From the IMG/VR virus record IMGVR_UViG_3300033049_000041, positions 21,232 through 85,231 of that record: a stretch of DNA of 64,000 bases, one strand, 5' to 3'. A program made the translations under genes and the position numbers. The first letter of the stretch is position 1, and every line of letters begins with the position of its first letter. Below, one piece after another: positions 4,855-57,052 of this stretch. The notes under the pieces were generated by a model. It was not told where the DNA came from and searched no databases. It saw only the letters and a list, made by a program, of their open reading frames with translations. Origin of the DNA: a virus.

Positions 4855-4986
4855 AAGCAGGGAATAAATCTATAAAGAGTTGTGAGCTAATGCTCGGCAA
4901 GAGTTGAACTTGCGACCCTTTGAATTAAAATCAAATGTTCTACCAACTGAACTACGAAGTAACTCTTTAAATTAATATCCCTGCTT
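4855..4986 (-). ncRNA. Y-like module RNA 1 (tRNA D/AC/T arms inside the module, anticodon position UUA)
   Basis: Outer stem AAGCAGGGA/TCCCTGCTT, TATTAATT, inner stem TAAAGAGTT/AACTCTTTA, TTACTTCG, then D, anticodon and T arms. Confidence 0.8.
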
Positions 4987-8048: not shown

Positions 8049-8054
8049 TAATAG

Positions 8055-8205
8055 TGAAGAACATGGGATTCGAACCCACAACCCTTCGAAGCAGGTGTCT
8101 AGCCATCAGAATATCCCAATTTGGAATGTTCTAGTGGAATATATGAGAGTTGAACTCACGTTACCCGACTAATACCGAATGCTCTACCATTGAAGCTACT
8201 TCCTC
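8055..8205 (-). ncRNA. fused pair of degenerate tRNA-like units
   Basis: Two T arms and two D-like arms; acceptor strands pair better crosswise than within each unit. Confidence 0.5.
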
Positions 8206-8210
8206 AGTTG

Positions 8211-10604: not shown

Positions 10605-10701
10605 TACCAAAAGAAGGACTCGAACCCCCAGTCACTTTACAATCAATTACTAGCACATTGAGTGTTTCATAAAGCCGCTTTGCCAATTAGCGTATTTCGG
10701 T
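10605..10701 (-). ncRNA. tRNA-like RNA with extended anticodon arm
   Basis: Acceptor ACCGAAA/TTTTGGT-A, D arm, T arm; GCTTTAT/GTAAAGT encloses about 28 extra nt. Confidence 0.65.
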
Positions 10702-10744: not shown

Positions 10745-11000
10745 TGTAACTACTAGTATTCAATAGATCTTTAGCTAAGAGACTCTTGTTCTACCACTGA
10801 ACTACACGTCCATAGCAAGTAATGAGATGCTTCTAGGCAGTCATTACTCGATTGGTTTCACCCATTTGGAGCAATCCAATTGAGGACGTGGTGGGAATCG
10901 AACCCACGACGTAGAGATTAAGGTATCTATTGACGTTCATAAATGCTTCAATCTAAAGCTTGACTCACAAAACTAAATCTAAAAGGCTAGTGTTGCTACA
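10745..11000 (-). ncRNA. YrlA-topology Y RNA-like ncRNA
   Basis: Long terminal stems, then T arm GTGGGTTCGATTCCCAC, closed acceptor CACGTCC...GGACGTG, then D arm GTTCAGTGGTAGAAC (order T-acceptor-D). Confidence 0.75.
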
Positions 11001-11827: not shown

Positions 11828-11870
11828 GTTTTTTTACTTTTCCTTTTTACTAAATCTAATTCTAAAATTG

Positions 11871-12017
11871 GGTGGGTGATCGGACTCGAACCGACGACCT
11901 TTCATTTAACAGATGATAATGCGAAGTAACTTATGAAAATCAGTACTACCGTAGTAAACAAATGTATTCTAAGTATAAAAATGCATAAATGCTCTAACCA
12001 ACTGAGCTACACCCACC
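11871..12017 (-). ncRNA. tRNA (His-like body, GUU anticodon) carrying the Y-like module as an insertion
   Basis: GGTGGGTG/CACCCACC acceptor, D arm, insert containing GTACTGATT...GTTACTTCG, TCAT-CTGTTAA-ATGA arm, T arm. Confidence 0.8.
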
Positions 12018-12022
12018 GTTTG

Positions 12023-12490
12023 TTATTTTAAATATCCAAAATCAATTAACCATTCATCAATCTTCTTATATAAATCTCTAGGTATTTTAATCCTATTATA
12101 TCTCCATTCTATGTTATTATGAAATGATACAGTATTATCATCAGTGTGAAATGATAAGTAAGGTCTATATTCACCATCCAATGCAACATAAGAACGAAAT
12201 CTAATAATACTACCATTAAAACCAACGTAAGTTTGATTATTACTACCTGACTTAACTTCCGTTACAGTTCTATTCATACATACTAATTGGGCATGACCAA
12301 AACTAGTTAAAGGTTTTCTCTGGTCTGAACAGCAACATAATAATAGTATATAATCCTTTAAGTACATTGCAGGTATAAAATGCTTAACATGTACAGGTAT
12401 CTGATACTTATTAAACAATTCTGCACGTTTCTTTATAGAGAAATCTTGATAATTAACAACCGCTATTAATTCTGATACTATCTTATTCAT
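12023..12490 (-). CDS. hypothetical protein
   Basis: 155-aa ORF. Confidence 0.7.
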   Translation of the reverse strand: MNKIVSELIAVVNYQDFSIKKRAELFNKYQIPVHVKHFIPAMYLKDYILLLCCCSDQRKPLTSFGHAQLVCMNRTVTEVKSGSNNQTYVGFNGSIIRFRSYVALDGEYRPYLSFHTDDNTVSFHNNIEWRYNRIKIPRDLYKKIDEWLIDFGYLK

Positions 12491-12503
12491 TTGATGTATT
12501 TAG

Positions 12504-12649
12504 CGGAACTATCGGGATTTGAACCCGATAATCTCTGAGTAGACAACCCAGAAAAATTACGAAGTAACATAATTAATTAATATTCCGTTGAAAGGAAATG
12601 AAGGCAAACTATGACTATACGTAACGCTCAACCATTGAGCATTAGTTCC
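12504..12649 (-). ncRNA. tRNA-Asp(GUC)-like RNA carrying the Y-like module between D and anticodon arms
   Basis: GGAACTA/TAGTTCC-G acceptor; insert closed by TTACG/CGTAA contains ATATTAATT...GTTACTTCG; CTGGG-TTGTCTA-CTCAG arm. Confidence 0.8.
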
Positions 12650-12830: not shown

Positions 12831-12916
12831 TGGGTCACATAACGAGATTCGAACTCGCTAATCTTTCGATACTGGTACCACAAACCAGCCCAACTCTCCA
12901 ACTTTGGCGTATGTGA
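12831..12916 (-). tRNA. tRNA-His(GUG), atypical long variable arm
   Basis: CTGGT-TTGTGGT-ACCAG; C73 plus CCA; extra ATC-GAAA-GAT arm. Confidence 0.8.
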
Positions 12917-14084: not shown

Positions 14085-14142
14085 GATATGGATTTGAATT
14101 GTGTAATAAATTGAGTGGTCGGGGTAGCAAGATTCGAACTTG

Positions 14143-14529
14143 CTATAAAGAATTTATAAATTCAGCATGATAAGAAGTAACTTCATCTTCAATAAGATGT
14201 TTAAATCTACTATGCCAGTATTTATGATGAGTAGGACATAAGGGTATTAAATTTTCTATAGAATTATTAGTGTGATTTCCATCAAAATGATGTACTTCTA
14301 CAATATTAGATTCTTTACAAATTACACATGATTTTTCATGTTGTAGAAAACAAGTACTACGATAGCGAGATTCTTTCCAATTAGGATTATTCTTACCACT
14401 TCTAAAATATGTATTTGAACATGAATGTGAACAAGTAGTTTTCTCTCTTGGAGACCCTTGTTTAGTTTCAAATTCGTTATCGCATACAGGACAACTTTTA
14501 ATTATCCTGTTATATACCTTTCTACTCAC
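14143..14529 (-). CDS. HNH endonuclease
   Basis: CPVC, CSHSC, CVIC, VHHFDGNHTNNSIENLIPLCPTHH; GTG start inferred because the ORF-track start lies inside the tRNA. Confidence 0.88.
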   Translation of the reverse strand: MSRKVYNRIIKSCPVCDNEFETKQGSPREKTTCSHSCSNTYFRSGKNNPNWKESRYRSTCFLQHEKSCVICKESNIVEVHHFDGNHTNNSIENLIPLCPTHHKYWHSRFKHLIEDEVTSYHAEFINSL

Positions 14530-17475: not shown

Positions 17476-17591
17476 TAAGGGGAACTAAAGTAAAGATAGT
17501 AATATGGCGGCATCGAAACCGCAACTCTTGAATAAAAATCAAACGCTAAACCAATTAGCACGAAGTAACTATCTTAATCAGTATCCCCTTA
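17476..17591 (-). ncRNA. Y-like module RNA (acceptor stem replaced by the module, UUU anticodon position)
   Basis: AAGGGGA/TCCCCTT, TACTGATT, AAGATAGT/ACTATCTT, TACTTCG, then D, anticodon and T arms. Confidence 0.8.
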
Positions 17592-18369: not shown

Positions 18370-18427
18370 TTGCGAGAAAAGGAGTCGAACCTCTACAAAA
18401 CTGCTCTACCAGTTAAGCTACCTCGCA
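18370..18427 (-). ncRNA. anticodon-less mini-tRNA
   Basis: TGCGAGG/TCTCGCA-A acceptor, D arm, 8-nt linker, T arm. Confidence 0.75.
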
Positions 18428-23420: not shown

Positions 23421-23569
23421 TAACAAGCAAACGAAAATACATAGACTGAAAATTAATGTGCCAGATTTACTATCTAGTGCCTTAACCATTTGGCTAATTC
23501 GGCATGAAGCCAAATACAGGACTCGAACCTATAATACGAAGTAAGTCTATGTTTTAGTATTGCTTGTTA
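23421..23569 (-). ncRNA. Y-like module RNA with circularly permuted tRNA (GUA anticodon position)
   Basis: AACAAGCAA/TTGCTTGTT, TACTAAAA, CATAGACT/AGTCTATG, TACTTCG, then T arm, closed acceptor TTTGGC-TTCAT-GCCGAA, D arm, anticodon arm. Confidence 0.82.
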
Positions 23570-23574
23570 ACTCT

Positions 23575-24591
23575 TTAAACTACATACAAATCTTTTGCAG
23601 TTAGTTTTATTTTGTGTTGTTTTACCACATCTTCCCAATCCTTGTAATTGGATGGTGGTAAATATTTATTCTCTTTTCTATTATACTCTCCTCTAACTCC
23701 AGTGATTTGCCACATAGAATCTGTTGCTGCAGATTTAACTCCATCATCAGTTCCTCTAGTTAATGAAAAGAAATCATTTCCTGGAAAAGATACATGATCC
23801 CATGCAACTAAACTAAAGAAACTAATACCTTCATCAGGTCTAAATAACTGAGGTCTAGGTTGTTTACTATTCAAATAAGGTCTAGATGCAAATAATGTTT
23901 TACCTCCAATTACCCAACTCTGGTCAACACCAACAGAATACGGATCGTACCATATCCCGAGTATGTTAGTCCACTTAGTTTTATAGTCTTCTAGTAACTC
24001 TAGTAACGTTGCTAACAGCAAGGTATGAACTTCTGCTTTATGTTTCCCTGCAAACTGACCACATCCAATTCCAGGAATAGTCACCATTGCAGGAACTCCT
24101 TGCTTATTAGCCTTTTCACTAATGTAAGTAAATACTGGAATAAGCTTTTCTCTAACCAATTCTTTATACAACTCAGGTACTACTTTACCGTTCTTAACTA
24201 TATCATAATCTACTGGAGTAATTGTACCAGCAGCTCTAAGAAGTGGTCCAGGAACGTAAACTAATGTACCATGAAAAGGTGTTCCGTGTAATGCTGGATT
24301 CTGATGTTTACCATCATCATAAATAGTCACTGGAACAGCAACACTTATATTACCAAGCACTTTTAGTTCCGCATTAGTCCAATCAGAGCCATCACCTTTA
24401 ATTTCAGATTCAGCAAACATTTCTGGTTGCTTTGTCTCAAGTAGAAAATCTAACTTAGATTCCTTAGATAACGGTATTCTTGCCATGCAGGGAAATAACG
24501 TAGTATTAGAAAAATTAGTTCCAGCATCACAAAGACTAAAATTCTCTAATCTTTGCATATTCTTCTTAGAGGTAATTATTGTATAATTCAT
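23575..24591 (-). CDS. MavL/Larg1-like macrodomain ADP-ribosylhydrolase
   Basis: PGIGCGQFAG loop and VAWDHVSFPGNDFF...RGTDDGVK, matching my recollection of the Legionella MavL catalytic loop. Confidence 0.72.
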   Translation of the reverse strand: MNYTIITSKKNMQRLENFSLCDAGTNFSNTTLFPCMARIPLSKESKLDFLLETKQPEMFAESEIKGDGSDWTNAELKVLGNISVAVPVTIYDDGKHQNPALHGTPFHGTLVYVPGPLLRAAGTITPVDYDIVKNGKVVPELYKELVREKLIPVFTYISEKANKQGVPAMVTIPGIGCGQFAGKHKAEVHTLLLATLLELLEDYKTKWTNILGIWYDPYSVGVDQSWVIGGKTLFASRPYLNSKQPRPQLFRPDEGISFFSLVAWDHVSFPGNDFFSLTRGTDDGVKSAATDSMWQITGVRGEYNRKENKYLPPSNYKDWEDVVKQHKIKLTAKDLYVV

Positions 24592-27503: not shown

Positions 27504-27667
27504 AAGGGAGCAAACAAAGCGATTCAAACTGTAATGTAATAAGCTAAATCCCAATTCTAGTGTGTCTACCAGTTCCACCACCGCCCATTTAATTGACATA
27601 CTGGTCGGGCGGGAAGGATTCGAACCTCCAAATACGAAGTAAGTTTGAAAATTAGTATTGCTCCCTT
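27504..27667 (-). ncRNA. Y-like module RNA with circularly permuted tRNA (Leu-type D arm, internal ACCA)
   Basis: AAGGGAGCAA/TTGCTCCCTT, TACTAATT, TTCAAACT/AGTTTGAA, TACTTCG, T arm, CCGCCCG-ACCA-linker-TGGGCGG, D arm, anticodon arm. Confidence 0.82.
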
Positions 27668-31816: not shown

Positions 31817-33649
31817 TTACCAAGAACCAAATGGCTCTAATTTAATTTCATTAACAGTATCATACAGCGCATTCGGATTAGCTTCCATTGCAATCAATTG
31901 CTTGAGTGTCTCGTAACTATATCCTGTTGAATGAATAATATTCGGATCATTATTATCAGGCATACAAGATGTACCATACGAATTAACGTTGATTAGGTAC
32001 ACATATACTCCTGATAAATTATTCTCTTCCATCCATCTCTTATACATTATGTATGCAGCACCAGCTACTCCATTCTGCATATCTGAGATAATGAATACAC
32101 GTTCTACTGGCTTAATTTGATGAGCATCTCTATAAGAACTTTTACATTGAAATATAGAACCCATATTAGTACCATGAGAAAAACGTGATAGTCTGGCAGT
32201 ACGTACAAACGTTTGTGCAATACTAGAAACACTATTAGAAGGGTCATAAGCAATTGCACCAGTTGCCGAAGCAAACTCATACAAATCAGCATTAACACCT
32301 TTTGCTAGTGTAGCGCCAATCAAAGCACCAATTTCTAATGGAGTCTTCTTATTGTAAGTATTTGCACAATGTCTTGGATTACGCATAGATGCAGATGAAT
32401 CAATTACAACAGCACTTCTACCAAAGAAACCTAAGTCTTCAAGGTTAGCACATGCAATATCATAAGCTTTATCTAAGTGTACTACGATTCGTCTACTAGC
32501 TGCATCACCAATCTGCATCATCATATCTCTAGCTTGTTCCACTTGATGCGGAAATACTAGATTACTAGGTGATTTGATTAATTTCTCATCAATTAATAAA
32601 GCACAGGCTTTCTCAAGCAATACTTTATCCATGGTACTTGATGCAGCATCATGTATGTTCTTCAGATTTCTAAGTAAAGCAAAATAACCAATCTTTCTAC
32701 TCTCAATCAGTGTACGGAAGTTTGCGGACTTACCTTTCACTAATTCTACTTGAGCTTGAGACTTCGTAATCTTACCTTCTTTCACCTTCTTAGCCACTGT
32801 TTGACCAAGCTTGGTGTTCTTATCTTCTACTGTATCCATTTGGCGTAACCATCCGTATATAGCAGCTTGAAAAGCATCTACTCGAACATAACCATCCTTA
32901 ACTCGAAGATTAGCTTTACGTATTTTCTCGTATATAGCATTCTCATTCTTCTTAGTAATGGCTTTACGCATATCAGTCTCATAGTCCTCAATCTTAATTG
33001 AAGCCCAGGCTCTTGATTTATTTGGTACAGGTCTCGTCAAGTTGATTAAATCAACCAAACTAACCATCTTACCTTTATTTTGATATTTTGCTAACTCATA
33101 CCAATCCGCTGATTCTAAGCCTTTTCTAAAGCCTTTAAGCATACTATTAGGTAAATTAATACCTTTGAATGCATCTAGCGTATTGATGTCTCTACCCTTA
33201 GCTTTAGCTCTCGTAATGTAGTAGTATGAAGCAATTTCCATCATGTCATCGACACGGAAAATAACTCCACCCATTTCTTTCTTACGATGTCTCTTACTAA
33301 AGAACAACCTTGCACATTGCTCACCACTTAACGATTTCATCAATCGTACTGCAGCAATATGAGTTCCTGTTCTATGTCCGTCTTTCGCACGAACGTAAAC
33401 AATGAGTTTTGCAGTGAATTCTGCTCCGTATACTTTAACACTCTCGTCGACAGCATCATTTAACATCCTGATTTCCTGAGATTCAGTTAGATAGTATGTT
33501 CTACCATCATACTTCTTAGTCGTCAGAATAGATAATAAATGCATGAAGGTCTTATAGGAATACCCTACACCACCTTGTCTAGTGTTCATCCTCTTGCTGG
33601 TATTAGCAGCTCTCTCCTTAACAATCCTCTTTTGATTGAACCTCGCCAT
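31817..33649 (-). CDS. Ro60/Rsr-like TROVE plus vWA RNA-binding protein
   Basis: NTRQGGVGY, YELAKY, SLVDLINLTRP, IGYFALLRNL, vWA MIDAS VIDSSASM, GTN, IISDMQ. Confidence 0.92.
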   Translation of the reverse strand: MARFNQKRIVKERAANTSKRMNTRQGGVGYSYKTFMHLLSILTTKKYDGRTYYLTESQEIRMLNDAVDESVKVYGAEFTAKLIVYVRAKDGHRTGTHIAAVRLMKSLSGEQCARLFFSKRHRKKEMGGVIFRVDDMMEIASYYYITRAKAKGRDINTLDAFKGINLPNSMLKGFRKGLESADWYELAKYQNKGKMVSLVDLINLTRPVPNKSRAWASIKIEDYETDMRKAITKKNENAIYEKIRKANLRVKDGYVRVDAFQAAIYGWLRQMDTVEDKNTKLGQTVAKKVKEGKITKSQAQVELVKGKSANFRTLIESRKIGYFALLRNLKNIHDAASSTMDKVLLEKACALLIDEKLIKSPSNLVFPHQVEQARDMMMQIGDAASRRIVVHLDKAYDIACANLEDLGFFGRSAVVIDSSASMRNPRHCANTYNKKTPLEIGALIGATLAKGVNADLYEFASATGAIAYDPSNSVSSIAQTFVRTARLSRFSHGTNMGSIFQCKSSYRDAHQIKPVERVFIISDMQNGVAGAAYIMYKRWMEENNLSGVYVYLINVNSYGTSCMPDNNDPNIIHSTGYSYETLKQLIAMEANPNALYDTVNEIKLEPFGSW

Positions 33650-50909: not shown

Positions 50910-51017
50910 TAACCCTAACAGGAATCGAACCTGCATTTCCTTACTAATTAAACCCACAGCGCCGATTTAACGACTGATTTAACGTTCTGATGTCCTGTCC
51001 ATTTAGACGATAGGATT
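50910..51017 (-). ncRNA. tRNA-scaffold RNA with replaced anticodon arm
   Basis: AATCCTA/TAGGGTT-A, D arm GTCTAAATGGACAGGAC, T arm GCAGGTTCGATTCCTGT. Confidence 0.65.
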
Positions 51018-51048: not shown

Positions 51049-51171
51049 TAACTCTAGCAGGATTCGAACCCACAATTCAGTACTAACCAAAACATAACTA
51101 TTTACCAATTGAATGGTTGCTTTCGCATAGTTTTGGTGTTCCTACGTCTTATCCAGTTAGACCATAGAGTA
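51049..51171 (-). ncRNA. tRNA-scaffold RNA with branched arm replacing the anticodon
   Basis: ACTCTA/TAGAGT, D arm GTCTAACTGGATAAGAC, ACCAAAAC/GTTTTGGT arm, T arm. Confidence 0.68.
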
Positions 51172-53079: not shown

Positions 53080-53418
53080 TTAATATACTAATACTCCAGA
53101 ATATCTGAAATACATATAAATAAATACTGGACACAGAAACCATATAATAAAAGTGTTTCTCATTGCATCGTCCATTTCTTTTACTCTTTTCTTTTCTTTC
53201 TGTTCATCCACCGATATAAGCGAAGAATACCTAAGCTTAAAGTCATTAAAATGATACTCTGAGTTAAATACCCAATGATTAGTGTAGACTATTACACCTT
53301 CATTAAGCGCTTCTCTAACTAAGATATTCTTTAATGCTCTAGTATTCTTCTTATTGGAGAACAATATGTTCGAATCAATTATTATGGTAAATTTAACCAT
53401 TAAACTTAACGAACACAT
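53080..53418 (-). CDS. hypothetical protein with C-terminal TM segment
   Basis: 112-aa ORF. Confidence 0.6.
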   Translation of the reverse strand: MCSLSLMVKFTIIIDSNILFSNKKNTRALKNILVREALNEGVIVYTNHWVFNSEYHFNDFKLRYSSLISVDEQKEKKRVKEMDDAMRNTFIIWFLCPVFIYMYFRYSGVLVY

Positions 53419-54166
53419 GATTAACGTCTATTAGTTCTTCATTGATGATTTGACTAATTTTGTGCCAATTACCATTAGCTAATCCAGCACCAATTGCAGG
53501 ATATGCAATAGTAAAACCAGGTTCAGAACCTTTATATTCGTTATTTAATTTCTTAAATATCTTACGCAATCCTTCATACTCAACATGGTCTACATTTCTT
53601 GGTAGAAAGTCATATTGAGTATAAGCATTAATAACTGTTAGGTTCTCGCCTAAGCGGTTTCTAACGCTCCAGTAAGTAAAACTACCAATTTTACTTTTAT
53701 CTCCTTTAGTAGTAGCTAAATCAGCTTCATATGCTTCAGGAATCTTCTCCTTAATTTCTCGTGCAATACCTGAACCCATCGTACAATGACAATTACAACC
53801 ATGTACAATCACATCATAATGACCATCCAATCCTAGTTCAACTAAGTTACCAAGAACAGTTCTCGGAGCTTTAGGTTTATCAGGGAAGTTATATGCTATA
53901 ATATCCTGAACTTCTTCAAATGATTGAGAGAGCATAAACTCTTGCTCACATATAAGGTTATCCGAACCTTGGAAGTCAATAGACAATCCACCTGGATCAC
54001 CTTTCATAACTGGTGGCATAATCACTGCTACAGTACCTTGTTCATCCATTTTCAATATTAGTTTACCTTGTACTATTAACATTGCAGTTATGAATTTTGG
54101 TAATGCTAAAACTTCAACATGATTGGGTACTTCTAGGGAATAAACCCCGAATTTAATAGTTTTCAT
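53393..54166 (-). CDS. macrodomain protein (DarG/TARG1-like C-terminal domain)
   Basis: DVIVHGCNCHCTMGSGIA...NAYTQ...YPAIGAGLANGNW. Confidence 0.88.
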   Translation of the reverse strand: MKTIKFGVYSLEVPNHVEVLALPKFITAMLIVQGKLILKMDEQGTVAVIMPPVMKGDPGGLSIDFQGSDNLICEQEFMLSQSFEEVQDIIAYNFPDKPKAPRTVLGNLVELGLDGHYDVIVHGCNCHCTMGSGIAREIKEKIPEAYEADLATTKGDKSKIGSFTYWSVRNRLGENLTVINAYTQYDFLPRNVDHVEYEGLRKIFKKLNNEYKGSEPGFTIAYPAIGAGLANGNWHKISQIINEELIDVNHVFVKFNG

Positions 54167-56596: not shown

Positions 56597-56992
56597 ATTC
56601 TGTATTTGATTAAAAAATCCCTCTTTGCGAATGAATAGTCATTATAGTAGCTTACACTACAATAAAATATCTCTACTCTGCAACAAGTATCGTGAAGTCA
56701 GTCCCCCAGGATTTTAGTTTAGTTCCAAAACGTGTGTTACTAGCTGATTTCATACACATTCTACTACATCAATTACCCTTTCGGTTTAAGCCTATTTGCA
56801 GCTGCACCCTCAGATGAGAACACAGTTAGACATCATCTATTCGTAATCTAGGTAGATGTAGCTACCCGTTATAGTGAAAAATAAATACTATCAAATAAAT
56901 AGCAGCCAGACGCTCGAACTTCTGGCTGCACGCAATTTGTAGAAAACCCCACGTTTTCCCCAAGATTATTTATAAAAATAACTTGTTTACTC

Positions 56993-57052
56993 CACTCTGC
57001 ATTTACACGGACTTGTGACCGTCAAGTATTGCTACTTGGTTGCATTAAAGTA
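56993..57052 (-). ncRNA. twister ribozyme (type P1)
   Basis: TACTT-TAA-TGCA-AC-CAAGTAGCAATACTTG-ACGGTCACAAGTCCGT-GTAAA-TGCA-GAGTG follows the twister consensus layout. Confidence 0.82.

What the first reader, a model, noticed from the sequence alone, without database searches (positions are those of the whole stretch)
11871..12649. Two tRNAs with free ends carry the module inside-out as an insertion
Seen: both have intact acceptor, D, anticodon and T arms plus a roughly 65-70 nt insert after the D arm. The insert is the circular permutation of the shared module, with stem1 closed as a hairpin (CTAC..GTAG and TTCC..GGAA). The first has a His-like body with potential G-1:C73 but a GUU anticodon; the second is Asp-like with GUC and G73. 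Canonical Asn and Asp tRNAs exist elsewhere (13262, 5904). Inference: these could be processed and even aminoacylated while tethered to Ro60. The inserts are too short for group I introns and show no bulge-helix-bulge motif.
Basis: partly seen in the sequence, partly recalled or inferred. Interest (0 to 1): 0.8.

Follow-up and report, generated by a model that had tools for sequence, protein, structure and literature searches.

The report
tRNA-shaped phage RNAs carrying Ro60-linked arm
Two small RNA genes in a marine phage look like complete tRNAs with normal free ends but carry an extra 68-base arm, the same conserved element found on the small RNAs that travel with the phage's Ro60 protein, so they are probably tRNA mimics and not working tRNAs.

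Summary
At 11870-12017(-) and 12503-12649(-) lie two cloverleaf tRNA bodies. Each has 73 extra nt between position 26 and the anticodon stem, of which 68 nt fold as a closed arm. That arm is the circular permutation of a module (stem1, UAYURAU loop, stem2, UUACUUCG) found in five other RNAs of this phage.

New here: the module is the signature of small RNAs encoded beside a phage clade of Ro60 genes. It occurs in 65 of 77 viral Ro60 loci, on the Ro60 strand, and in 0 of 45 distant Ro60 loci. The layout [quoted passage not shown] is itself conserved: I aligned 17 examples from 15 loci, and all 27 modelled pairs covary. Those relatives have a degenerate D arm. The two window RNAs are the only ones seen with a canonical tRNA body.

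No Rfam family or paper searched describes the layout. Published YrlA RNAs have a closed acceptor end and no anticodon loop. Other agents of this scan noted similar RNAs on other DNA.

Ro60 binding, processing and charging remain inferred. There are no expression data, and the published Ro60 motif is absent. Verdict: a real feature, a new variant of the Ro60/Y-RNA tRNA-mimic kind.

The parts
11870..12017 (-). t1: five-armed tRNA-shaped RNA gene (G-1 at 12017, C73 at 11871, C74 at 11870)
   Evidence: Rfam tRNA 45.2 bits with a long insertion. Structure checked base by base. Family model R3, built without it, scores 35.5 bits, the best hit in the 85-kb genome.
12010..12017 (-). t1 acceptor 5' strand, pairing with 11871-11878 (8 bp including G-1:C73)
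   Evidence: All 8 pairs are standard.
11991..12007 (-). t1 D arm with G18G19; A26 at 11990
11919..11986 (-). t1 extra arm, 68 nt: closing stem AUGC/GCAU, internal loop, stem2, internal loop, hairpin-closed stem1; module core 11922-11974 ends in GUUACUUCG
   Evidence: The isolated arm's minimum-energy fold gives this nesting. An alternative register of stem2 is seen.
11902..11916 (-). t1 anticodon arm, loop CUGUUAA, GUU at 11908-11910; V loop AGGUC follows
   Evidence: The loop is identical to that of the phage tRNA-Asn.
11879..11895 (-). t1 T arm (loop UUCGAGU)
12503..12649 (-). t2: five-armed tRNA-shaped RNA gene (G1 at 12649, G73 at 12504, C74 at 12503), starting 7 nt after tRNA-Lys
   Evidence: The minimum-energy fold gives all five arms, z -5.25. 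R1 scores 31.2 bits and R3 32.3 bits.
12557..12624 (-). t2 extra arm, 68 nt: closing stem UUACG/CGUAA, stem2 CAUAGU/AUUAUG, stem1 UUCC/GGAA with a 7-nt loop; module core 12560-12613
   Evidence: R3 aligns this module with high posterior.
12535..12551 (-). t2 anticodon arm, loop UUGUCUA, GUC at 12542-12544
12512..12528 (-). t2 T arm (loop UUCAAAU); acceptor 3' strand 12505-12511
31817..33649 (-). Ro60 (TROVE + vWA) homologue, the presumed protein partner
   Evidence: 464 homologues at E <= 1e-5; most of the 120 listed carry PF05731 and some are named Ro. A profile of the family hits solved Ro60 structures 9KOP at 1.4e-29, and 1YVP and 2NVO at about 7e-8. Direct Pfam scoring gives only 17.3 bits.
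4860..4982 (-). Open-ended module RNA around a tRNA-like core (ARAGORN calls it 'tRNA-Stop tta'); same UAUUAAU loop type as t2 (approximate ends)
17480..17590 (-). Open-ended module RNA; same UACUGAU loop type as t1 (approximate ends)
   Evidence: stem2 8 of 8 pairs.
23425..23570 (-). Module RNA with YrlA-like order (T arm, closed acceptor, D arm) (approximate ends)
   Evidence: stem2 8 of 8.
27505..27665 (-). Second module RNA with YrlA-like order (approximate ends)
   Evidence: stem2 8 of 8.

Best explanation
t1 and t2 are non-decoding tRNA mimics. They are lineage-specific members of a conserved family of small RNAs of phages that encode one clade of Ro60.

Proposed steps (all inferred unless marked):
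1. They are transcribed within the phage's minus-strand tRNA array.
2. Their ends are made like tRNA ends (RNase P at the 5' end, trimming and CCA addition at the 3' end), because the acceptor/T-arm half is canonical.
3. The 68-nt fifth arm, which leaves the hinge between the D stem and the anticodon stem, is the family's conserved module and serves as the docking site for the phage Ro60.
4. The tRNA body with its free acceptor end is the part shown to tRNA-binding proteins. The particle therefore couples Ro60 to some step of tRNA metabolism or quality control during infection.

Shown: the anatomy, the conservation and covariation of the layout, and the genomic link of the module to Ro60.
Inferred: transcription, processing, Ro60 binding and function.
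For: 1. Anatomy. Both RNAs keep all four tRNA arms plus a nested 68-nt arm.

2. The arm is the shared module in permuted order.
- Exact GUUACUUCG occurs 4 times in the window, all on the minus strand and all in such RNAs.
- The five open-ended copies in the genome each have an 8-of-8 stem2 partner downstream. t1 and t2 have theirs (7 of 8) upstream.

3. Link to Ro60.
- The module pattern hits 65 of 77 viral Ro60 loci: 126 hits on the Ro60 strand against 6 on the other, with 9 and 9 for the reversed-pattern control.
- It hits 15 of 22 metagenome Ro60 loci at >= 33% identity.
- It hits 0 of 45 loci with distant Ro60 and, on the gene's strand, 0 of 27 DUF7873 loci.
- Two complete relatives carry 4 modules each, 1.6-4.4 kb downstream of Ro60. 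Three genomes without Ro60 (two of them complete) show chance-level counts.

4. The free-ended layout is conserved.
- 17 RNAs from 15 loci align over their whole length.
- On the alignment of 71 R3 matches, 87.2% of cells pair against 58.6% when shuffled. All 27 pairs change on both sides. The covariation score is 0.508, against 0.145 shuffled and <= 0.111 when partners are slid.
- RNAalifold alone recovers the acceptor, stem2, stem1 and T arm.

5. The family model built without t1 and t2 ranks them first and second in the 85-kb genome: 35.5 and 32.3 bits, with the best ordinary tRNA at 19.6.

6. tRNA-gene conventions. C74 follows the discriminator in 22 of 23 tRNA genes, and also in t1 and t2. 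t2 starts 7 nt after tRNA-Lys, like the tRNA-tRNA junctions of this phage.

7. Against decoding. Canonical Asn and Asp tRNAs are present. t1 combines a His-type acceptor with an Asn anticodon. t2 has A8 and U37.
Against: - There are no expression data; no RNA run holds the stretch.
- Ro60 binding rests on co-occurrence only. The published Ro60-contact motif GNCGAAN0-1G is absent from t1, t2 and all 8 window RNAs checked.
- t1 and t2 lie about 19-20 kb from the Ro60 gene, well beyond the 4 kb used to call YrlA genes.
- Model support for membership is modest. The module-only model R2 did not reach E <= 1 on the window. R3 also gives 25-32 bits to module-less tRNA-like RNAs with inserts in 27 DUF7873 loci; three of their records were searched for Ro60 and lack it.
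- t1's fold is thermodynamically marginal and its inner pairing is ambiguous.
- No RNA with a canonical tRNA body plus the module was found in 100 other loci. These two RNAs therefore have no orthologues to test by covariation.
- The pair counts were made on an alignment fitted to the model, and many loci are near-duplicates.
Confidence: 0.58

Rival explanations
1. They are working tRNAs with an extra arm. The arm is tolerated like the long variable arm of class II tRNAs. The RNAs are charged and decode Asn and Asp codons, with the module acting as a regulatory or protective handle.
For: - t1 keeps every canonical tertiary nucleotide and a standard anticodon loop identical to that of the phage tRNA-Asn.
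- t2 has GUC and G73, which match Asp identity elements (recalled knowledge).
- The secondary-structure topology, a five-way junction, is the same as in class II tRNAs.
- Both share the 3' flank of tRNA genes.
Against: - Canonical Asn and Asp tRNAs already exist.
- t1's C73 with G-1 is a His-type acceptor on an Asn anticodon.
- t2 has A8, U37 and A38, and no tRNA finder calls it.
- The relatives have degenerate D regions and variable, non-anticodon-like loops such as UUGAAA and UCAUA.
- A 68-nt arm at the hinge, bulkier still if protein-bound, would likely clash on the ribosome (inference).
Confidence: 0.12
2. The arm is an intron-like or mobile insertion that is cut out to give ordinary 75-nt tRNAs.
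For: - Removing the 73 nt would restore a standard cloverleaf in both RNAs.
- In t1 the closing stem is 4 bp long and flanked by short single strands.
Against: - At 68-73 nt the insert is far below group I intron size.
- The same module exists as free-standing small RNAs and in other topologies beside Ro60 in dozens of phages.
- In 17 relatives, removing it would not leave a tRNA, because the D arm is degenerate.
- Module stems covary as expected for a functional RNA arm.
- I made no formal bulge-helix-bulge search.
Confidence: 0.05
3. They are decaying tRNA genes disrupted by recombination with a module RNA, and have no function of their own.
For: - The full-tRNA version is seen only in this phage: 0 of 100 other loci.
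- The t1 and t2 modules each match the loop subtype of another copy in the same genome, which fits recent intragenomic exchange.
- t1's fold is marginal.
Against: - Two independent genes keep every helix of both the tRNA and the module, with arms of identical length (68 nt) but different stem sequences.
- The order of parts equals that of a conserved family.
Confidence: 0.1
4. The RNAs are real tRNA mimics, but the module docks something other than Ro60, either another phage protein or another RNA. Ro60 is merely encoded nearby.
For: - The published Ro60-contact motif is absent.
- The conserved UUACUUCG sits on the strand opposite to where the published motif lies in YrlA.
- t1 directly precedes a DUF7873 gene, which has its own tRNA-mimic RNAs.
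Against: - The module tracks one Ro60 clade and its strand. On the gene's strand it is absent from 27 DUF7873 loci; three of their records were searched for Ro60 and lack it.
- The window protein family is clearly Ro60.
Confidence: 0.15

Closest known systems
YrlA (Y RNA-like A, Rfam RF02553; Chen et al. 2014, PMC4201824; Wang et al. 2018, bioRxiv 10.1101/312249)
   Same: It is a small RNA encoded on the Ro60 strand that joins a protein-docking stem to a tRNA-like domain with D and T arms. It occurs in bacteria and phages.
   Different: - Published YrlA has the order T arm, closed acceptor hairpin, D arm, with the RNA ends in the docking stem.
[quoted passage not shown]
- It carries GNCGAAN0-1G near its 5' end (passages).
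- t1 and t2 have free acceptor ends, an anticodon arm and a hairpin-closed docking arm. They lack that motif and get no RF02553 hit.
[quoted passage not shown] 2014, passages)
   Same: It is a Y RNA that ends up with a tRNA-like acceptor end carrying CCA, and was noted as potentially chargeable.
   Different: There the free end arises by cutting a closed 7-bp acceptor hairpin, which gives a nicked, permuted molecule. Here the acceptor ends are the gene's own ends and the RNA is one unpermuted piece.
Class II tRNAs (Leu, Ser, bacterial Tyr) with a long variable arm
   Same: They share the five-way-junction secondary structure: acceptor, D arm, two middle arms and T arm.
   Different: The extra arm of class II tRNAs is short, follows the anticodon arm (positions 44-48) and serves synthetase recognition. 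Here the extra arm is 68 nt, precedes the anticodon arm (26/27) and carries a conserved two-loop module.
tmRNA tRNA-like domain
   Same: It has a free acceptor/T-arm half with a CCA end, a degenerate D region in the relatives, and a large insertion between the two halves. A tmRNA gene lies near the Ro60 gene in this phage.
   Different: t1 and t2 have no G3:U70, no reading frame or pseudoknots, and no Rfam tmRNA match beyond short T-arm fragments.
Thermus phage phiLo Ro60 with Yrl1/Yrl2 (PMC12135203)
   Same: It is a phage Ro60 shown to bind phage-encoded Y-like RNAs. Its structure is the best solved match to this protein family.
   Different: Yrl1 and Yrl2 are stem-bulge-stem RNAs picked by a CGAA motif, with no tRNA body described (passages).

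Membership tests
tRNA (Rfam RF00005 / ARAGORN) | Scores above the curated threshold of a tRNA model | tested here: inconclusive
   t1 scores 45.2 bits against a gathering score of 29, with the arm treated as an insertion. t2 has no tRNA hit even at E <= 10. ARAGORN calls neither.
tRNA (Rfam RF00005 / ARAGORN) | Cloverleaf of about 73-90 nt with a continuous D stem / position 26 / anticodon stem | tested here: not met
   The RNAs are 147-148 nt, with 73 nt between position 26 and the anticodon stem.
tRNA (Rfam RF00005 / ARAGORN) | Conserved tertiary nucleotides (U8, A14, G18G19, U33, purine 37, T-loop UUCRA) | tested here: inconclusive
   t1 has all of them. t2 has A8 and U37.
tRNA (Rfam RF00005 / ARAGORN) | Aminoacylation and decoding | not testable with these tools
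   No data.
YrlA (RF02553) | Reaches the Rfam gathering score (69 bits) | tested here: not met
   No RF02553 match on t1 or t2 at E <= 10. The only window hit, 10757-10933, scores 42.5 bits.
YrlA (RF02553) | Permuted order with a closed acceptor stem-loop and no anticodon loop | tested here: not met
   t1 and t2 have open acceptor ends and an anticodon arm. The definition is from passages.
YrlA (RF02553) | GNCGAAN0-1G motif near the 5' end | tested here: not met
   Absent from t1 and t2; 0 of 8 window RNAs have it.
YrlA (RF02553) | Encoded within 4 kb of Ro60 on the same strand | tested here: not met
   Same strand, but about 19-20 kb away. The criterion is from the passage.
YrlA (RF02553) | Bound by Ro60/Rsr | not testable with these tools
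   Only co-occurrence is available.
Phage Ro60-linked module RNAs, free-ended class (defined here; no Rfam family) | Module: stem1, UAGUAA-type loop, 7-bp stem2, UUAC(U/A)UCG, U-rich opposite loop | tested here: met
   Exact GUUACUUCG and both stems are present. The loops are the variants UACUGAU and UAUUAAU, shared with other copies in this genome. However, the module-only model R2 gave no hit at E <= 1.
Phage Ro60-linked module RNAs, free-ended class (defined here; no Rfam family) | Order: acceptor 5' strand, D region, hairpin-closed module, small hairpin, T arm, acceptor 3' strand | tested here: met
   R3 gives full-length hits of 35.5 and 32.3 bits. In the control, module-less RNAs with inserts reach 25-32 bits.
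Phage Ro60-linked module RNAs, free-ended class (defined here; no Rfam family) | A Ro60 gene of the phage clade in the same genome | tested here: met
Group I or bulge-helix-bulge tRNA introns | Group I core of about 200 nt or more, or a bulge-helix-bulge at the junctions, with insertion usually in the anticodon loop | tested here: not met
   The insert is 73 nt at position 26/27, and no intron family matched in Rfam. Bulge-helix-bulge was judged by eye only.

The most novel reading that the evidence does not exclude
These are chargeable Y RNAs: one-piece RNAs that are matured, given CCA and aminoacylated like tRNAs while Ro60 sits on the fifth arm. A Ro60 particle could then be carried by synthetases or EF-Tu, or report on the charging or damage state of the tRNA pool during infection. 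t1, with a His-type acceptor and an Asn anticodon loop, and t2, with Asp-type features, would be the most tRNA-like examples.

The hint from relatives: the four free-ended RNAs that have lost the canonical T loop all encode ACCA, as if a CCA end had to be kept even where the CCA-adding enzyme could no longer supply it.
Probability: 0.15. Interest if true: 0.85.

Novelty: new variant of a known kind. Interest (0 to 1): 0.63.

Why it matters
Ro60 and its Y RNAs are conserved from bacteria to humans. Yet nobody knows what the tRNA-like domain of bacterial and phage Y RNAs is for, or which protein it recruits. Published examples hide the acceptor end and lack an anticodon loop.

RNAs that keep a whole tRNA, free ends included, and simply add the Ro60-linked arm are natural constructs for that question. 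They predict which tRNA enzymes should act on the particle: RNase P, the CCA-adding enzyme, synthetases and modification enzymes. They also give a short (68 nt), portable candidate docking element that can be moved onto any RNA.

For phage biology, they point to a Ro60-based system tied to the large tRNA arrays of big phages.

Tried and rejected
**Searches that found nothing or could not run**
- Megablast of 10 kb of the window against cultured phages gave no match. A protein search with Ro60 found only distant phage homologues (<= 30.5% identity).
- Single-protein searches for related loci found nothing: the ORF between t1 and t2, DUF7873 and Ro60 in metagenomes.
t1 and t2 therefore have no close orthologues to compare.
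- The first viral pattern scan, with the window's loop variant, gave 111 single, chance-like hits, mostly in coding sequence. My first regular expression on the Ro60 loci gave 0 hits because it excluded UAGUAA. The widened pattern then worked.
- No RNA holder was listed for the stretch. The only holder is one seawater DNA run that may be the source of this DNA.
- The promoter/terminator scan was uninformative: 8 promoter-like sites against 12.1 expected.

**Models**
- R2, the module-only model, did not find t1 or t2.
- R1 found no full-tRNA-plus-module RNA in 100 other loci. All 21 hits were 75-76-nt tRNAs.

**Readings rejected**
- Recent copies of the phage's own Asn, Asp or His tRNAs: no special similarity.
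- Hammerhead, twister or other small ribozymes, judged by eye and by the absence of any Rfam hit on the arm.
- A link to the four queuosine-type anticodons (GUN). I considered this and dropped it because relatives carry other loops.

**Papers**
- PMC4201824: passages.
- PMC12135203: passages.
- 10.1101/312249: passages.
- PMC7824862: passages.
- PMC10870794 is not held.
- Search listings showed no description of a free-ended tRNA carrying a Ro60 module.
- Supplements were not opened. Chen et al.'s Supplemental Tables S1/S2 and Fig. S1 list 22 phage YrlA candidates and could hold similar RNAs.
Full report
**Setting.** The window is the last 64 kb of an 85-kb IMG/VR virus record. CheckV estimates it as 41% complete. 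A seawater DNA run holds it. It has 32% G+C. On the minus strand it carries 25 ARAGORN tRNA genes and a tmRNA.

**The observation.** Read on the minus strand, 12017-11870 (t1) and 12649-12503 (t2) are tRNA cloverleaves with something extra in the middle.

t1:
- It has an 8-bp acceptor helix (G-1:C73) and a canonical D arm.
- After A26 come 73 additional nt.
- Then follow an anticodon arm with loop CUGUUAA, the standard AGGUC variable loop and a standard T arm.
- Rfam's tRNA model scores it 45.2 bits by skipping 85 nt.

t2:
- It has the same plan, with a 7-bp acceptor, loop UUGUCUA and G73.
- It also has A8 and U37. ARAGORN does not call it, and Rfam tRNA does not hit it at E <= 10.

Thermodynamics:
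- t2 is far more stable than shuffles (z -5.25, 0 of 200), and its minimum-energy fold shows all five arms.
- t1 is marginal (z -1.49, 13 of 200).
- In both, the extra arm measured from closing stem to closing stem is exactly 68 nt. Folded alone, each arm gives closing stem, internal loop, stem2, internal loop and a hairpin-closed stem1.

- The CTAC/GTAG hairpin in t1 would have a 1-nt loop. UACUA-CGG-UAGUA is feasible.
- A second register for t1's stem2 competes with mine.

**The arm is the shared module, permuted.**
- The exact 9-mer GUUACUUCG occurs four times in the window, all on the minus strand. The 8-mer occurs eight times on that strand of the genome, seven of them in intergenic tRNA-like RNAs.
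- In five copies the RNA ends lie in stem1, and a tRNA-like core sits between the module halves. Each of these has a perfect 8-bp stem2 partner downstream.
- In t1 and t2 the partner lies upstream and stem1 is closed by a loop.
- The t1 module shares its UACUGAU loop with the copy at 17561. The t2 module shares UAUUAAU with the copies at 4955 and just outside the window.

**The protein.**
- ORF 31817-33649(-) is a Ro60 homologue. Pfam alone gives TROVE only 17.3 bits.
- It has 464 homologues at E <= 1e-5. Most of the 120 listed carry PF05731, and several are named Ro by their sources.
- A profile of the family hits solved Ro60 structures: Thermus phage phiLo (9KOP, 1.4e-29), Xenopus 1YVP and Deinococcus Rsr 2NVO (about 7e-8).

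**The module tracks one Ro60 clade.** I fetched 79 viral and 67 metagenome loci around Ro60 homologues. The widened pattern (UAGUAA-type loop, 7-13 nt, UUAC-N-UCG) gave these counts:

| Locus set | Loci with a hit on the gene's strand | Hits + / - strand | Reversed-pattern control + / - |
|---|---|---|---|
| Viral Ro60 (33-39% identity to the window protein) | 65 of 77 | 126 / 6 | 9 / 9 |
| Metagenome Ro60, >= 33% identity | 15 of 22 | 23 / 0 | 0 / 1 |
| Ro60 at <= 32% identity | 0 of 45 | 0 / 0 | 1 / 2 |
| DUF7873 loci | 0 of 27 | 0 / 1 | 2 / 0 |

- Many loci are near-duplicates from different samples, so these are not independent counts.
- Two complete ~100-kb relatives have four modules each, 1.6-4.4 kb downstream of Ro60. 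Three genomes without Ro60, two of them complete, have chance-level counts.
- Many copies are free-standing ~80-nt hairpins. Others enclose tRNA-like cores.
- Rfam 15 has no family for them. Only some permuted ones get sub-threshold YrlA scores.

**The free-ended layout is a conserved class.**
- Scripts and a 50-nt module model (R2) found hairpin-closed modules, mostly capped by GNRA loops. They lie inside RNAs closed by a G+C-rich 7-bp acceptor stem.
- Seventeen such RNAs (111-145 nt) from 15 loci align end to end. The order is acceptor, an A-rich or mini-hairpin D region, module, a short linker, a small hairpin, T arm, acceptor, then R73-C.
- RNAalifold by itself recovers the acceptor, stem2, stem1 and T arm.
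- A model of this alignment (R3) found 23 matches at >= 63 bits in 100 sources.
- On its 71-match alignment, 87.2% of cells pair (58.6% shuffled). All 27 pairs change on both sides. The covariation score is 0.508, against 0.145 shuffled and at most 0.111 slid. That alignment is fitted to the model.

**Are t1 and t2 members?**
- R3 was built without them. It ranks them first and second in the whole genome at 35.5 and 32.3 bits. The next hits are 25.7 and 19.6 bits; the latter is the best ordinary tRNA.
- Against this, the module-only model gave nothing on the window at E <= 1.
- In a control set, R3 gave at most 17 bits in 73 unrelated viral loci. It gave 25-32 bits to five module-less tRNA-like RNAs with inserts in DUF7873 loci.
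- The model scores therefore mostly reflect the general layout. Membership rests on the exact motif, the two stems, the order of parts and the sibling copies in the same genome.
- No RNA combining a canonical tRNA body with the module turned up in 100 other loci. t1 and t2 are a lineage-specific, most tRNA-like form.

**Hints about the ends.**
- In this phage 22 of 23 tRNA genes have C at position 74, usually followed by A or U. t1 (C73-C-A-A) and t2 (G73-C-U-A) follow the rule.
- t2 starts 7 nt after the discriminator of tRNA-Lys, like the 8-9-nt tRNA-tRNA junctions elsewhere.
- Among 17 free-ended relatives, six encode ACCA. Only 4 of 95 tRNA genes in those six loci have CCA near their end.
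- The four relatives whose T hairpin is no longer canonical all encode ACCA, against 2 of 13 with a canonical T loop. These four may be one clade, so this may be a single event. It still suggests that the CCA end is needed.

**Comparison with what is known.**
- Published YrlA RNAs have the ends in the Ro60 stem, a closed acceptor hairpin and no anticodon loop. They carry GNCGAAN0-1G near the 5' end and lie within 4 kb of Ro60 (passages).
- t1 and t2 fail each of these tests. They share the idea of a docking stem joined to a tRNA mimic.
- The nearest functional precedent is M. smegmatis YrlA, which RNase P cuts and which receives CCA.
- Searches of the paper library found no description of a one-piece, free-ended tRNA carrying a Ro60-linked arm. 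I did not see supplements.
- Earlier notes of this scan report similar RNAs on other DNA. They are unchecked AI notes, not publications.

**Verdict.** The feature is real and conserved in kind. It is best read as a new variant of the Ro60/Y-RNA tRNA-mimic theme. Ro60 binding, processing, charging and function are inferences that await the experiments listed.

Noticed in passing
window 8054-8206 (-): A third tRNA-like gene, directly after tRNA-Ala, has an insert of about 80 nt after the D arm. The insert holds a T-arm-like hairpin and a degenerate module (GGGAUAUUCUGAU ... CUGCUUCG). R1 scores it 23.5 bits; Rfam and ARAGORN do not call it.
   Followed up: partly
window 56989-57051 (-): A match to the type-P1 twister ribozyme at 60.6 bits (gathering score 67.2), E 3.4e-11.
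   Followed up: no
window 12831-12916 (-): ARAGORN's 86-nt 'tRNA-His(GUG)' has a long variable arm capped by GAAA, a U1:A72-type acceptor and an encoded CCA. Rfam gives no tRNA hit at the gathering score. It lies two genes from t2.
   Followed up: partly
window 4890-4961 (-): ARAGORN's 'tRNA-Stop (tta)' is not a suppressor tRNA. It is the core of an open-ended module RNA whose acceptor stem is replaced by the module.
   Followed up: partly
window 10605-10701, 10757-10933, 18370-18427, 50910-51017, 51049-51171 (all -): Further odd tRNA-like hits: a tRNA with a 29-nt anticodon-loop insert, a sub-threshold YrlA match with a 73-nt insert in its acceptor hairpin, a 58-nt tRNA lacking the anticodon arm, and two tandem tRNA-like genes with inserts.
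   Followed up: no
window 14118-14216 (-): A T-arm hairpin plus GUUACUUCU (one mismatch to the module motif) overlaps the 3' end of an HNH-endonuclease ORF. R3 scores it 25.7 bits.
   Followed up: partly
window 23575-24591 (-) and 53393-54166 (-): A MavL-type macrodomain protein (Pfam E 1.3e-94) lies directly upstream of a module RNA. A second Macro-domain protein lies at 53393-54166. An ATP-dependent ligase-domain protein lies at 1082-2236.
   Followed up: no
loci L019, L234, L039, L043, L078, L023: Free-ended module RNAs of other phages encode ACCA, although neighbouring tRNA genes do not. All four that lack a canonical T loop do so.
   Followed up: partly
window copies at 4955, 11922, 12560, 17561, 23537, 27635 and genome C1:20947: The module's first internal loop comes in three subtypes within this one genome: UAUUAAU in three copies, UACUGAU in two, and UACUAA in two. 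Each subtype is shared by RNAs of different topology.
   Followed up: no
DUF7873 loci L197, L199, L215, L196, L204: tRNA-like RNAs with 40-70-nt inserts but no UUACUUCG module lie downstream of DUF7873 genes. The one record of these five that was searched for Ro60 (L196) has none.
   Followed up: no
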